DNA of 64,000 bases from Eledone cirrhosa. Lineage: Eukaryota. A model generated the notes under the pieces. It had not been told where the DNA came from, searched no databases, and saw nothing but the letters and a program-made list of their open reading frames with translations. The DNA lies in the NCBI GenBank assembly GCA_964016885.1, contig OZ024740.1:51584001-51648000 (forward strand). The letters run 5' to 3'. Each line of letters begins with the position of its first letter. Positions within the stretch are counted from its first letter, which is position 1. Both the position numbers and the translations under genes were made by a program. Shown in pieces: positions 1 through 64,000 of this stretch.

Positions 1-89
1 GCGTATTTTCCAGTTACTTCATTGTCTCGCTGTTTGTTGTATGGATCACCACACACACCACATTTACCTCCATTTATGTCATACTGTAC
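1..89 (-). CDS. Internal coding exon of an AA15-family lytic polysaccharide monooxygenase (chitin-binding type-4/LPMO); continues past the left edge
   Basis: Minus strand has a polypyrimidine tract and AG acceptor (tttttctttttttgtttactcag, AG at 91-90), then phase-0 VQYDINGGKCGVCGDPYNKQRDNEVTGKY(A). This matches the AA15 motif QxxxNGGKCGVCGDP...RxxExxGKY. Too short for the ORF track. Confidence 0.85.
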
Positions 90-539
90 CTGAGTAAACA
101 AAAAAAGAAAAATGTAATGAGGTTTGAAATGGCCTTTGAGACAGGTAGTGAAAAGGAAGTAGACTCTGTTAAAGGCCCACAAGAACTGAGTGTTAGTGTT
201 AAACTAAGAAATAGATTAATTCTACTAACTGAGAGTAGAAACGATCTCTCCAGGATTCTGTCTACAAAATGTTACTCCTGTTTGTTTTGGTCAACATAAG
301 ACACTTGGCCTAGGTGTTATATAACACAAAACTAAGTAGTTATGAAACAAAGTGGAGAAATAACAAAAGCTAGAGAAAAGAACAAGAATAAATATCTTGT
401 ACTCATTATTTCTTTCTTCATTCTGAAAGTTCTGATTAAGAAATCTATCCTGGGATTATCTTTGCTTTTCAATGTATCATATTGGGTTTTGAGGTTGCCA
501 ATAAAATAAACACCTCTCCAAATAAAATTTCAGTTATTA

Positions 540-720
540 TTCAGACCCAGGTCAACTTAGATCAATTAAAGAAGTCCAGCCACAACAACTCCATCTCTTT
601 ATGATTATATAGAGGATTACAATTTAATATATCCTTCCAAAGTTTTTTAAACGATGTTATAGTTTGATTCAAGGAATACTTAGCTGCTATTTCTAGCAAG
701 TAGAGCAACTACGTATAGGC
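540..720 (-). repeat. Old interspersed repeat copy (CTAGAAATAGCAGC family)
   Basis: Reverse complement aligns by eye with 34805-34950 (ctagaaatagcagc...ggata...gacct..g); a related motif occurs near 63797. Strand label is relative. Confidence 0.55.
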
Positions 721-770
721 TTTCTAGTTTGCTTAATAATATGTGGGTGAAACATGCAAACCATTGGTTT

Positions 771-3700
771 GTGTGTAACCAATGGTGTCGTGTGTAACCA
801 ATGGTATTGTGTGTAACCAATGGTGTCGTGTGTAACCAATGGTATTGTGTGTAAACAATGGTATTGTGTGTAACCAATGGTGTCGTGTGTAACCAATGGT
901 GTCGTGTGTAACCAATGGTGTCGTGTGTAAGCAATGGTATTGTGTGTATCCAATGGTACTGTGTGTAACCAATGGTATTGTGTGTAACCAATGGTGTTGT
1001 GTGTAAACAATGGTGTTGTGTGTAACCAATGGTATGGTGTAACCAATGGTGTCGTGTGTAACCAATGGTATTGTGTGTAACCAATTGTAGTGTGTGTAAC
1101 CAATGGCATTGTGTGTAACCAATGGTATTGTGCGTAACCAATGGTATTGTGTGTAACCAATGGTATTGTGTGTAACCAGTGGTATTGCGTATAACCAATG
1201 GTGTCGTGTGTGACCAATGGTGTTGTGTGTAACCAATGGTGTTGTATGTAACCAATGGTGTTGTGTGTAACCATTGGTATTGTGTGTAACCAATGGTATT
1301 GTGTGTAACCAATGGTGTTGTGTGTAACCAATGGTATTGTGTGTAACCAATGGTGTTGTGTGTAACCAATGGTGTTGTGTGTAACCAATGGTATTGTGTG
1401 TAACCAATGGTGTTTGTGTAACAGATGGTGTTGCGTGTAACCAATGGTGACATGTGTAACCAATGGTGTCGTGTGTAACCAATGGTGTTGTGTGTAACCA
1501 ATGGTGTCGTGTGTAACCAATGGTGTCGTGTGTAACCAATGGTGTCGTGTGTAACCAATGTTGTTGTGTGTAACCAATGATGTTGTGTGTAACCAATGAT
1601 ATTGTGTGTGACCAATGGTATCATGTGTAACCAATGGTGTCGTGTGTAACCAATGGTGTTGTGTGTAACCAATGGTGTCGTGTGTAACCAATGGTGTCGT
1701 GTGTAACCAATGGTGTCGTGTGTAACCAATGGTGTCGTGTGTAACCAATGATGATGTGTGTAACCAATGATATTGTGTGTGACCAATGGTATCATGTGTA
1801 ACCAATGGTGTTGTGTGTAACCAATGGTGTCATGTGTAACCAATGGTGTCGTGTGTAACCAATGGTGTTGTGTGTAACCAATGGTGTTGTGTGTAACTAA
1901 TGGTATTGTGTGTAACCAATGGTGTCGTGTGTAACCAATGGTGTTGTGTGCAACCAATGGTGTCGTGTGTAACCAATGGTGTTGTGTGTAACCAATGGTG
2001 TCGTGTGTAACCAATGGTATTGTGTGTAACCAATGGTGTTGTGTGTAACCAATGGTGTCATGTGTAATCAATGGTGTCGTGTGTAACCAATGGTATTGTG
2101 TGTAAACAATGTTGTCATGTGTAACCAATGGTGTCGTGTGTAACGAATGGTATTGTGTGTAACCAATGGTGTTGTGTGTAACCAATGGTGTTGTGTGTAA
2201 CCAATGCTGTTGTGTGTAACCAATAGTGTCGTGTGTAACTAATGGCGTTGTGTGTAACTAATGGTGTCATGTGTAACCAATGGTATTGTGTGTAACCAAT
2301 GGTGTCGTGTGTAACCAATGGTGTCGTGTGTAACCAATGGTATTGTATGTAACCAATGGTGTTGTGTGTAACCAATGGTATTGCGTGTAACCAATGGTGT
2401 CGTGTGTAACTAATGGCGCCGTGTGTAACTAATGGTGTCATGTGTAACCAATGGTATTGTGTGTAACCAATGGTGTTGTGTGTAACCAATGGTGTTGTGT
2501 GTAACCAATGCTGTTGTGTGTAACCAATAGTGTCGTGTGTAACTAATGGCGTTGTGTGTAACTAATGGTGTCATGTGTAACCAATGGTATTGTGTGTAAC
2601 CAATGGTGTCGTGTGTAACCAATGGTGTCGTGTGTAACCAATGGTATTGTGTGTAACCAATGGTGTTGTGTGTAACCAATGGTATTGCGTGTAACCAATG
2701 GTGTCGTGTGTAACTAATGGCGTCGTGTGTAACTAATGGTGTCATGTGTAACCAATGGTATTGTGTGTAACCAATGGTGTCCTGTGTAACCAATGGTGTT
2801 GTGTGTAACCAATGGCGTCGTGTGTAACCAATGGTATTGTGTGTAACCAATGGTGTCGTGTGTAACCATTGGTGTTGTGTGTAACTAATGGTGTTGTGTG
2901 TAACCATTCGTATCGTGTGTAACGAATGGTATTGTGTGTAACCAATGGTATCGTGGGTAACCGATGGTATTGTGCGTAACGAAAGGTGTTGTGTGTAACC
3001 AATGGTATTGTGTGTAACCAATGATGTCGTGTGTAACCATTGGTGTTGTGTGTAACCAATGGTGTTGTGTGTAACCATTGGTATCGTGTGTAACCAATGG
3101 TGTCGTGTGTAACCAATGCTATTGTGTGTAACCAATGGTGTCGTGTGTAACCAATGGTATTGTGTGTAACCAATGGTATTGTGTGTAACCAATGGTATTG
3201 TGTGTAACCATTGGTGTTGTGTGTAACCAATGGTATTGTGTTTAACCAATGGTGTCGTGTGTAACCAATGGTGTCGTGTGTATCCAATGGTACTGTGTGT
3301 ATCCAATGGTACTGTGTGTAACCAATGGTGTTGTGTGTAACCAATGGTGTTGTGTGTAACCAATGGTGTTGTGTGTAACCAATGGTATGGTGTAACCAAT
3401 GGTGTCGTGTGTAACCAATGGTAGTGTGTGTAACCAATGGTAGTGTGTGTAACCAATGGCATTGTGTGTAACCAATGGTGTTGTGTGTAACCAATGGTAG
3501 TGTGTGTAACCAATGGTATTGTGTTAACCAATGGTATTGTGTATAACCAGTGGTATTGCGTATAACCAATGGTGTCGTGTGTAACCAATGGTGTCGTGTG
3601 TAACCAATGTTGTCGTATGTAACCAATGGTGTTGTGTGTAACCATTGGTATTGTGTGTAACCAATGGTATTGTGTGTAACCAATGGTGTTGTGTGTAACC

Positions 3701-63267: not shown

Positions 63268-63375
63268 ATAACGAAGGAAGTGTGGTAAGGAACCAGGTGG
63301 ACCATAACGCACCAGAGTACTCAATACTAAGGGTAGTAGAGTGCTTTGCCGTCGGGGTCTTAAACATTTCCTATA
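63268..63375. mobile_element. Short pLTR fragment of the 58392-60713 PLE family with an internal inversion
   Basis: 63268-63343 matches 60588-60663; 63343-63375 is similar to the reverse complement of 60668-60699. Confidence 0.8.
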
Positions 63376-63471
63376 TATGTCAACATGAATAGACCTGCTA
63401 TTTTTATCTAAAGACATTTTTTTGCAATTCCAACCCGCTCGTCTCCTCAATCTATTTTATTTCTCATTCTT

Positions 63472-63507
63472 TCTTCTGATGAAGGACTAGCGTCCGAAAC
63501 GTTAAGA
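63472..63507 (+). ncRNA. Minimal type I hammerhead ribozyme, canonical core
   Basis: TCTT-CTGATGA-a GGAC tagc GTCC-GAAA-CG-TT-AAGA, with palindromic AACGTT. Confidence 0.8.
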
Positions 63508-63823
63508 CCCTCTTCCTGCTATATCAAGCGTTAACCTAATATATACCTCTCATATACTGTACCCATTGTGTTGTTATTTCTGTTTACCTTTTACACACAC
63601 ATATATATATATATATATATATATATATATATATATACTAAATCGAAATAAGTTTCGAAATGAAAAAGTGAAAAAATACCCCGTTCAGCTCTCCTCGGCA
63701 AGTACCCTGAACAATTGGTATGTTTCACTTCAAAATATTTAAAAAGACTGTTTAACGCACATGGTTTTCCAGTATCTAGCTGCCGCATACTCGTTCTGCT
63801 AGAAATAACAGCCGTTTATATGG

Positions 63824-64000
63824 GGCTAAAGTTAGCTCTACATAAGGAGCAGTGATACTAAGAATAATGAGTTCTAAACTCAAGTATTACACGGCTCAGA
63901 AATACTTCTTTCTTCGAGCTATTTCATTGTAAAGGACTGCTTGAGTTTAGAACTCATTATTCTTAGTATCACTGCTCCTTATGTAGAGCTAACTTTAGCC
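63824..64000. repeat. Perfect inverted repeat (arms of at least 61 bp, 55-bp spacer); runs off the window edge
   Basis: 63824-63884 is the exact reverse complement of 63940-64000. Confidence 0.95.

What the first reader, a model, noticed from the sequence alone, without database searches (positions are those of the whole stretch)
1..64000. AA15 LPMO gene with a probable giant intron holding a 33 kb satellite
Seen: a clean acceptor and AA15-motif exon at 89-1(-). Known: AA15 LPMOs need an upstream signal peptide and N-terminal His-brace segment (HG..PP.R...N.L.CGG). I found no such exon in the unique segments of the window. Inference: the satellite and all retroelements lie in an intron longer than 63 kb and are transcribed on the minus strand, comparable to satellite-filled giant introns of Drosophila Y fertility genes but in a chitin-remodelling copper enzyme gene.
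Basis: partly seen in the sequence, partly recalled or inferred. Interest (0 to 1): 0.78.

Follow-up and report, generated by a model that had tools for sequence, protein, structure and literature searches.

The report
Repeat-swollen intron in octopus chitin enzyme
An intact copper-enzyme gene of what is likely an octopus has a 99,302-base first intron, one third of it a single 33-kb tandem repeat, and one sequenced contig joins the exons across it; repeat arrays this long are common in this genome, so this is likely ordinary intron swelling and not a fly-Y-type giant-intron system.

Summary
The structural inference is right; the analogy is overstated. Window 89-1(-) begins exon 2 of an intact three-exon AA15 LPMO gene (264 aa, 70% identical to Octopus sinensis). 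Exon 1, with signal-peptide-like leader and His1, lies 35.4 kb beyond the window. Intron 1 is 99,302 bp, GT-AG, phase 0. A 1,376-nt contig of run X1 lays on exons 1, 2 and 3 in order, without the introns. The 19-bp array (759-33,685; about 1,735 copies) is single-locus: 660 of 660 genome matches lie here. It grew by recent block duplications. The intron is large (paralogues 0.9-19 kb) but not megabase-scale, and two thirds of it is mostly transposon debris. Such arrays are ordinary here: 9 of 60 evenly spaced 10-kb samples were wholly satellite, and 8 of those 9 probably exceed 70 kb. Best reading: tolerated, neutral intron swelling. The more interesting lead is genome-wide: roughly 15% of this genome may sit in many unrelated minisatellite macro-arrays.

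The parts
1..89 (-). 5' part of coding exon 2 of the AA15 gene. The whole exon is 382 bp (G000:C1:51584089-51583708) and runs off the left end of the window. Intron 2 (2,736 bp) and exon 3 (C1:51580971 to the stop at 51580748) lie further left, outside the window.
   Evidence: the X1 contig lays here and on exon 3
90..120 (-). 3' splice acceptor of intron 1: pyrimidine tract and CAG
   Evidence: the X1 contig leaves the genome here, while contigs of runs X2 and X4 continue into the intron
90..64000 (-). 3' 64% of intron 1 (99,302 bp, C1:51683391-51584090). The donor GTGAGT and exon 1 (ATG at C1:51683580, 189 coding bases, about 250 bases of 5' leader) lie 35.4 kb beyond the right end of the window.
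759..33685 (.). Single-locus 19-bp minisatellite macro-array. About 1,735 units of 125 kinds; random unit pairs differ by 11%. Nested block duplications of 0.5-9.2 kb form about four mosaic higher-order copies, most pairs 0.1-0.5% apart. It starts 670 bp upstream of the acceptor and makes up 33% of the intron.
35232..36206 (+). 3' fragment of an RTE-like LINE with a PHD-finger hit (family label from recall)
37828..40434 (+). GIY-YIG fragment (38,432-39,286) between 97%-identical inverted copies of a roughly 710-bp stretch; Penelope-like (label from recall)
40430..43728 (-). LINE with endonuclease and reverse-transcriptase pieces in separate frames
44386..46373 (+). Penelope-like retroelement pieces. 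No Pfam hit; similar to the element at 58.4-60.6 kb; label from recall.
51687..54133 (+). RTE-like LINE, 730-aa RVT_1 + PHD frame; a 93%-identical copy lies near the 5' end of the same intron, outside the window
54535..56656 (-). LINE with RVT_1 and C2H2 zinc-finger pieces in separate frames
58392..60647 (-). Penelope-like retroelement pieces (no Pfam hit; similar to 44.4-46.4 kb)

Best explanation
This is an intact three-exon AA15 copper monooxygenase gene whose 99,302-bp first intron is absent from an exon-joining contig, and which likely swelled neutrally through retroelement insertions plus local growth of one 19-bp minisatellite. Shown: the gene model, the splice sites, the contig on all three exons, the single-locus array and the genome-wide background of similar arrays. 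Inferred: RNA polymerase II reads through the array on the minus strand and the intron is removed by ordinary exon-defined splicing. Inferred: the array grew by slippage of the 19-mer, then by unequal exchange of 0.5-9 kb blocks, recently. Inferred: it is tolerated because its sense strand carries few AG acceptors and no AATAAA. Predicted from sequence: a secreted, possibly membrane-tethered, chitin-active enzyme (axial Phe, hydrophobic C-terminus).
For: Open 795-bp CDS, GT-AG at both introns, 70% identity over the full length to O. sinensis XP_029639091. A 1,376-nt X1 contig of depth 12.7 lays letters 1-443 on exon 1, and letters 438-824 on exon 2 and 825-1,376 on exon 3. The 6-letter overlap with one mismatch is what the predicted junction gives. 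No intronless copy appears among the 20 genome matches. Six paralogues have intron 1 at the same place, about 0.9-19 kb long. Background: 9 of 60 samples wholly satellite (15%, 95% CI 7-27%), about 22% of sampled bases in arrays of 500 bp or more. Flank probes put 8 of those 9 arrays at 70 kb or more, and 12 sampled arrays fall into 11 families, none sharing more than 20 13-mers with ours. The non-satellite intron is about as repetitive as the samples (50% vs 44% hit). No sign of selection on array variants: stop-creating changes seen 7 of 8 vs 40 of 49, AG-creating 7 of 9 vs 40 of 48.
Against: The intron is a real size outlier: 5 times the longest paralogous intron 1 and about 40 times the O. 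vulgaris median of 2,467 bp (PMC10700109). Three housekeeping loci had no gap between detected exons over about 23 kb (incomplete exon lists). The sense strand is tenfold poorer in AG than the rest of the intron (5.6 vs 56 per kb), which hints at filtering. The O. bimaculoides model lacks exon 1 and sits on a 20-kb contig, a weak hint that this intron was already long or repetitive in an ancestor. X1 is one run, of unrecorded kind, from the same study as the DNA-like runs. That the records are one contig is inferred from equal length, depth, strand and complementary letter ranges.
Confidence: 0.78

Rival explanations
1. Y-loop-like intron gigantism: the satellite transcript forms a nuclear structure or a timer that needs dedicated RNA-binding proteins, as in Drosophila kl-3 and kl-5.
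For: About 99% of the locus is non-coding (795 coding bases in about 103 kb). The array must be transcribed if splicing is in cis. The sense strand is CA-rich (4,089 ACAC) and folds slightly better than shuffles (z -2.56 on one 285-nt piece).
Against: The size is 0.1 Mb against megabases (PMC6508621). Only 33% of the intron is this array. Longer arrays are common in the genome. 50-100 kb introns did not behave like Y genes in flies (PMC11207136). Nothing here bears on sex linkage or germ-line restriction.
Confidence: 0.05
2. The array is a cis-regulatory or chromatin element of this gene: a bank of CCAAT boxes, a methylated block, or a delay line that tunes the timing of a chitin-remodelling enzyme.
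For: 1,198 matches to a recalled CCAAT-box consensus in 1,737 units. G-to-A at unit position 14 occurs only after C (137 of 598 vs 0 of 1,087; 9 of 33 vs 0 of 76 distinct units), which fits deamination of methylated CpG. The array is single-locus.
Against: A repeated 19-mer copies any chance motif. The CpG variants may descend from one or two events, so the counts are not independent. Methylation would be expected in any transcribed gene body (own knowledge). No depletion of disruptive variants. Neighbouring higher-order copies differ by many unit indels.
Confidence: 0.1
3. The array is real but its length is inflated by assembly: the near-identical 9.2-kb tandem block is two haplotypes placed head to tail.
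For: The two 9.2-kb blocks differ by 0.13% plus 10 unit indels. This is close to the 4 differences in 2,564 bp (0.16%) between X2 contigs and the assembly nearby.
Against: There are about four mosaic higher-order copies and a separate 2.7-kb duplication, which one false duplication cannot make. The window has no N. X2 and X4 contigs run from exon 2 to the start of the array. Removing 9.2 kb leaves a 90-kb intron with a 24-kb array, so the conclusions stand.
Confidence: 0.1
4. The open minus-strand frames of the array encode a His/Thr-rich repeat protein.
For: The sense strand has open stretches up to 736 codons, against 37 on the plus strand.
Against: The consensus unit simply lacks stops on that strand. 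There are 106-116 stops per frame, and stop-creating variants are not depleted. The X1 contig passes directly from exon 1 to exon 2. The Zein and Mlo Pfam hits on a repeat frame are most likely composition artefacts.
Confidence: 0.02

Closest known systems
AA15 lytic polysaccharide monooxygenases (TdAA15A, PDB 5MSZ; Sabbadin et al. 2018, PMC5823890, passages)
   Same: Leader ending just before His1, His brace, Ala two residues before the second His, ten conserved-type cysteines, Pfam LPMO_10; family already reported in molluscs. The orthologue is annotated in O. sinensis, O. vulgaris, O. bimaculoides and Argonauta.
   Different: Axial Phe where TdAA15A has Tyr184, the state that paper links to chitin-active enzymes. 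One extra Cys (C36). A hydrophobic tail with a seven-Ala run absent from the Octopus orthologues. Activity untested.
Drosophila Y-loop genes kl-3, kl-5, ks-1 (intron gigantism; PMC6508621, PMC11207136)
   Same: Satellite inside an intron of a protein-coding gene; about 99% of the locus non-coding.
   Different: 0.1 Mb, not megabases. A complex 19-mer private to one locus, not a simple pentamer such as (AATAT)n or (AAGAC)n. Two thirds of the intron is not this array. No evidence of Y linkage, testis restriction, loops or dedicated proteins.
Single-locus intronic minisatellites and macrosatellite-type arrays with higher-order duplication (general class; from own knowledge)
   Same: One locus, variant units interspersed, whole-unit indels, nested block duplications.
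   Different: 33 kb is long for a classical VNTR, yet short for this genome, where most whole-satellite samples ran 70 kb or more.
Gene-size expansion in cephalopods (PMC10081198, passages; PMC10700109, Table 3 passage)
   Same: Cephalopod genes are expanded to vertebrate-like sizes through introns.
   Different: The passages seen do not attribute this to minisatellite macro-arrays. Large genes there are mostly neuronal, whereas this is a small secreted enzyme.

Membership tests
AA15 LPMO | Signal peptide whose cleavage exposes His1 | tested here: met
   28-residue hydrophobic leader (hydropathy up to 1.86) before His29, which aligns to His1 of 5MSZ. No signal-peptide predictor was run.
AA15 LPMO | Second brace His with Ala two residues before (His91/Ala89 in TdAA15A) | tested here: met
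   Ala115-Asn-His117 aligns to Ala-Pro-His of 5MSZ (numbering from PMC5823890).
AA15 LPMO | Axial aromatic residue (Tyr or Phe) | tested here: met
   Phe213, placed through the O. sinensis orthologue's alignment to 5MSZ. Exon 3 alone did not hit 5MSZ.
AA15 LPMO | Ten conserved cysteines | tested here: met
   C59, 73, 76, 126, 139, 179, 182, 204, 207, 216, plus an extra C36. One of the ten sits a few columns off its 5MSZ counterpart in the orthologue's alignment.
AA15 LPMO | Copper-dependent oxidative cleavage of chitin or cellulose | not testable with these tools
   Needs an enzyme assay.
Drosophila-type intron gigantism (Y-loop genes) | Megabase-scale introns | tested here: not met
   99,302 bp vs kl-3 at least 4.3 Mb (PMC6508621).
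Drosophila-type intron gigantism (Y-loop genes) | More than 99% of the locus non-coding | tested here: met
   795 coding bases in about 103.4 kb, 99.2% non-coding.
Drosophila-type intron gigantism (Y-loop genes) | Introns dominated by satellite DNA | tested here: not met
   Array 33%, all tandem repeats 39% of intron 1; genome samples average 34% tandem repeat by the same program.
Drosophila-type intron gigantism (Y-loop genes) | Y-linked, spermatocyte-specific, lampbrush-like loops, dedicated RNA-binding proteins | not testable with these tools
   No tissue labels, cytology or stranded reads available.
Single-locus minisatellite macro-array | Head-to-tail 10-100 bp units confined to one locus | tested here: met
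   Period 19; 31 of 31 and 660 of 660 exact genome matches lie in the window. Diverged relatives elsewhere would be missed by exact patterns.
Recursively spliced long intron | Used AG|GT ratchet points inside the intron | tested here: inconclusive
   4 motif matches in 99 kb, one with a 15-of-20 pyrimidine tract (C1:51671226). No reads to test use.

The most novel reading that the evidence does not exclude
This gene is one visible case of a genome-wide architecture. About 15% of this octopod genome would sit in some thousands of unrelated minisatellite macro-arrays of 30 to over 130 kb. Arrays that land in expressed introns would be filtered for sense strands that lack AG acceptors and polyadenylation signals. 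Minisatellite amplification, and not transposons alone, would then be a main driver of cephalopod gene-size expansion. The abundance is sampled here (9 of 60 samples); the array count is arithmetic from it; the filter rests on this one array, and 4 of 24 strands of other sampled arrays have 10 or fewer AG per kb.
Probability: 0.25. Interest if true: 0.6.

Novelty: new member of a known kind. Interest (0 to 1): 0.27.

Why it matters
As a single locus it matters little. AA15 genes are known in molluscs, and 100-kb repeat-rich introns are known in large animal genomes. It is a clean case of a small enzyme gene carrying a 33-kb private array without losing its reading frame or its splicing. It also shows how annotation on fragmented assemblies can lose the His-brace exon, as the O. 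bimaculoides model appears to have. The larger point is the background: if about 15% of an octopod genome is unrelated minisatellite macro-arrays, cephalopod repeat surveys may have missed a major component. The giant-squid draft reported 0.89% for satellites, simple repeats and small RNAs together (PMC6962438; a different, fragmentary assembly). The genome would then be a natural test of which repeats an intron can tolerate.

Tried and rejected
Orphan pseudo-exon: rejected, since exons 1 and 3 were found and joined. Exon 1 between 90 and 770, or elsewhere in the window: rejected. Dispersed satellite family: rejected for exact patterns. A seed of the 19-mer in the flanks or samples: only one 13-bp match at E 0.92. 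Nested host gene in intron 1: none seen. Pfam on 23 hand-picked frames of the 78 listed for the window's right half and on 23 frames of 125 aa or more from the intron's outer part gave transposon domains, one DUF7041 hit beside a gypsy-like element, and repeat artefacts; short exons would be missed. Rfam: 0 matches. Coding array: rejected. Sequencing runs: no RNA holder listed (X1's kind is not on record). X1 had no cover at L047:4753-5104 in intron 1, which proves nothing. Transcription and read depth of the array: not measured. Intron background from pyruvate carboxylase and two 2-oxoacid dehydrogenase loci: exon lists incomplete and first introns not covered, so only a rough guide. No structure was predicted. 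Paper searches for this gene, or for satellite arrays in octopus genomes or introns, found nothing on point; the library lacks most subscription papers. PMC9068888 passages had nothing on satellites. No supplements were read; repeat tables in cephalopod genome supplements may already report the satellite share. Earlier scan notes: none for this genome or protein; four partial word matches on other DNA.
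Full report
Setting. The window is G000:C1:51584001-51648000 in a 3.0-Gb assembly of 1,796 contigs. The closest named relatives of its one host exon are from Octopus sinensis (78% over the exon) and Argonauta hians (69%), so the animal is likely an octopod.

On the minus strand a pyrimidine tract and CAG end at window 90, and the frame from 89 is open. The exon continues left of the window to a GTAAGT donor: 382 bp. It hits Pfam LPMO_10 (E 1.5e-12) and the only solved match, AA15 structure 5MSZ (E 1.2e-19). The array spans 759-33,685: period 19, 1,735 copies. 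Six mollusc AA15 queries found no other AA15 exon in the window.

The gene. Searching G000 with the O. sinensis protein placed exon 1 at C1:51683580-51683377 and exon 3 at C1:51580981-51580751, both on the minus strand. With canonical sites the model is 189 + 382 + 224 bp, an open 795-bp CDS of 264 aa, 70% identical to O. sinensis over its length. Intron 1 is 99,302 bp (GTGAGT...CAG, phase 0); intron 2 is 2,736 bp. His29, Ala115/His117, Phe213 and ten cysteines match the AA15 features given in PMC5823890 (passages). That paper links an axial Phe to chitin-active enzymes, so chitin activity is predicted, not shown. The C-terminus is hydrophobic; GPI anchors occur in AA15 (PMC8615602, passages), but I ran no predictor.

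The intron is spliced. Four of 8 listed runs held the whole exon. Run X1 (88 million letters, kind not on record) has a 1,376-nt contig of depth 12.7 whose letters 438-824 lie on exon 2 and 825-1,376 on exon 3 and its 3' region. A contig of the same length, depth and strand lays letters 1-443 on exon 1 and about 250 bases of leader. I infer these are one record. The overlap of letters 438-443, with one mismatch, is what the predicted junction gives. Contigs of X2 and X4 (one sample, about 1,400 million letters each) run straight across both exon-intron borders. No intronless copy shows among 20 genome matches. This is one run, from a study that may be the assembly's own. That the array is transcribed follows only by inference.

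The array. It has 1,737 units of 125 kinds; 1,701 are exactly 19 bp. A 38-letter pattern gave 31 genome matches, all in the window. A 28-letter pattern gave 660 in the genome and 660 in the window. Random unit pairs differ by 11%, but blocks of 0.5-9.2 kb recur: five of six block comparisons differ by 0.12-0.45% and one by 0.84%. This points to older diversification of the unit, then recent block duplication, most likely by unequal exchange (inference). One 9.2-kb block pair (0.13%) is as close as two alleles (4 differences in 2,564 bp), so a false duplication of that block is not excluded; it would not change the picture. The sense strand has 5.6 AG per kb against 56 in the rest of the intron, and no AATAAA. 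Variants that create AG or stops are not depleted: 7 of 9 and 7 of 8 seen, against 40 of 48 and 40 of 49. G-to-A at position 14 occurs only after C (137 of 598 vs 0 of 1,087), which fits methylated CpG but may trace to few events.

The rest of the intron is LINE, Penelope-like and gypsy-like debris on both strands, plus a 2.1-kb 30-bp array. Half of it has a match in 600 kb of genome samples, against 44% for the samples among themselves. Rfam found nothing in the window.

How unusual is it? As an intron, it is large. Six paralogues have intron 1 at the same position, about 0.9, 2.6, 2.7, 4.2, 6.3 and 19 kb long. The O. vulgaris median intron is 2,467 bp (PMC10700109, one table passage). Three housekeeping loci showed no gap above about 23 kb between detected exons (incomplete). 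As an array, it is not unusual. I took 60 evenly spaced 10-kb samples from 9 of the 1,796 contigs, 40 of them from C1 and C2. Nine were wholly satellite (15%, CI 7-27%), and about 22% of bases lay in arrays of 500 bp or more, a figure that includes a few AT-microsatellite rows. Probes at -60, -25, +35 and +70 kb put 8 of the 9 at 70 kb or more, and three at 131 kb or more, if the arrays are continuous between probes. Such sampling favours long arrays. Twelve sampled arrays form 11 families by shared 13-mers, none related to ours. All tandem repeats make up 39% of the intron and 34% of the samples. Four of 24 strands of those arrays have 10 or fewer AG per kb, so the AG-poor sense strand is suggestive only.

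Comparison. The Drosophila Y-loop genes have megabase introns of simple satellites, are expressed only in spermatogenesis and need Blanks and Heph (PMC6508621: passages and the Introduction). In PMC11207136 (passages), 50-100 kb introns are the 'large but not outlier' class and did not show the Y-gene defects. This locus meets the 99% non-coding mark, fails on size and on satellite dominance, and cannot be tested on tissue or cytology. Cephalopod genes are known to be expanded (PMC10081198, passages). Six searches found no paper on this gene or on minisatellite macro-arrays in octopus genomes; the library is partial and no supplements were read.

Open. The O. bimaculoides model starts to align only at exon 2 and lies on a 20,397-bp contig, a weak hint of an old long or repetitive intron.

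Verdict. Observation confirmed; intron inference confirmed and measured; Y-fertility-gene analogy not supported. Most likely a tolerated, neutrally swollen intron (0.78). New member of a known kind; interest 0.27. The lead worth following is the genome-wide load of unrelated macro-arrays and whether intronic ones are filtered for splice signals.

Noticed in passing
G000 samples L058, L068, L070, L071, L075, L089, L097, L113, L115 (C1, C2, C3, C18, C28): Nine of 60 evenly spaced 10-kb samples are wholly minisatellite, with unrelated units of 15-101 bp; 8 probably run 70 kb or more. Different arrays also sit next to each other (around L075, L076, L097). This may be an under-reported component of octopod genomes.
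   Followed up: partly
L015:6519-8651 (-), G000:C1:51674519-51676651, inside intron 1: A second minisatellite, 30 bp x 70, with one frame open for 711 codons on the host gene's strand (10-residue repeat). No Met, only 5 kinds of variant (2 silent, 3 not); no sign of coding.
   Followed up: partly
L022:5412-6314 (-) and L023:2128-2910 (-), about 60 kb upstream of exon 1: Two long single-frame Bap31/Bap29 matches (301 and 261 codons) about 7 kb apart; they look like intronless tandem copies, possibly a retrogene and its duplicate.
   Followed up: no
G000:C7:23.34-23.36 Mb, C9:39.23-39.26 Mb, C2:154.43 Mb, C2:390.18-390.20 Mb: Six further AA15 paralogues with the same intron 1 position, two pairs in local clusters; the C9:39.23 Mb copy has an extra intron in exon 2. 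A weak seventh match at C2:154.08 Mb was not examined.
   Followed up: partly
window 37828-40434: A GIY-YIG fragment flanked by 97%-identical inverted copies of about 710 bp; would form a long double-stranded stem in the pre-mRNA, a possible A-to-I editing substrate (inference).
   Followed up: no
L013:3166-6983 (+), inside intron 1: Gypsy-like retrotransposon remains (RT, RNase H, integrase in separate frames) with 98%-identical direct repeats of 451 bp about 4.9 kb apart, probably its LTRs.
   Followed up: no
window 759-33685: Each unit holds a near-palindrome and a CCAAT word; 1,198 matches to a recalled CCAAT-box consensus in 1,737 units. Probably chance copied by repetition.
   Followed up: partly
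exon 3, L005:6781-6805 (-): A GCT triplet run gives seven alanines in the hydrophobic tail, absent from the Octopus orthologues.
   Followed up: no
protein P0049 (XP_014779646.1): The O. bimaculoides RefSeq model lacks the His-brace exon and carries an unrelated N-terminus, probably a mis-annotation on a 20-kb contig.
   Followed up: partly
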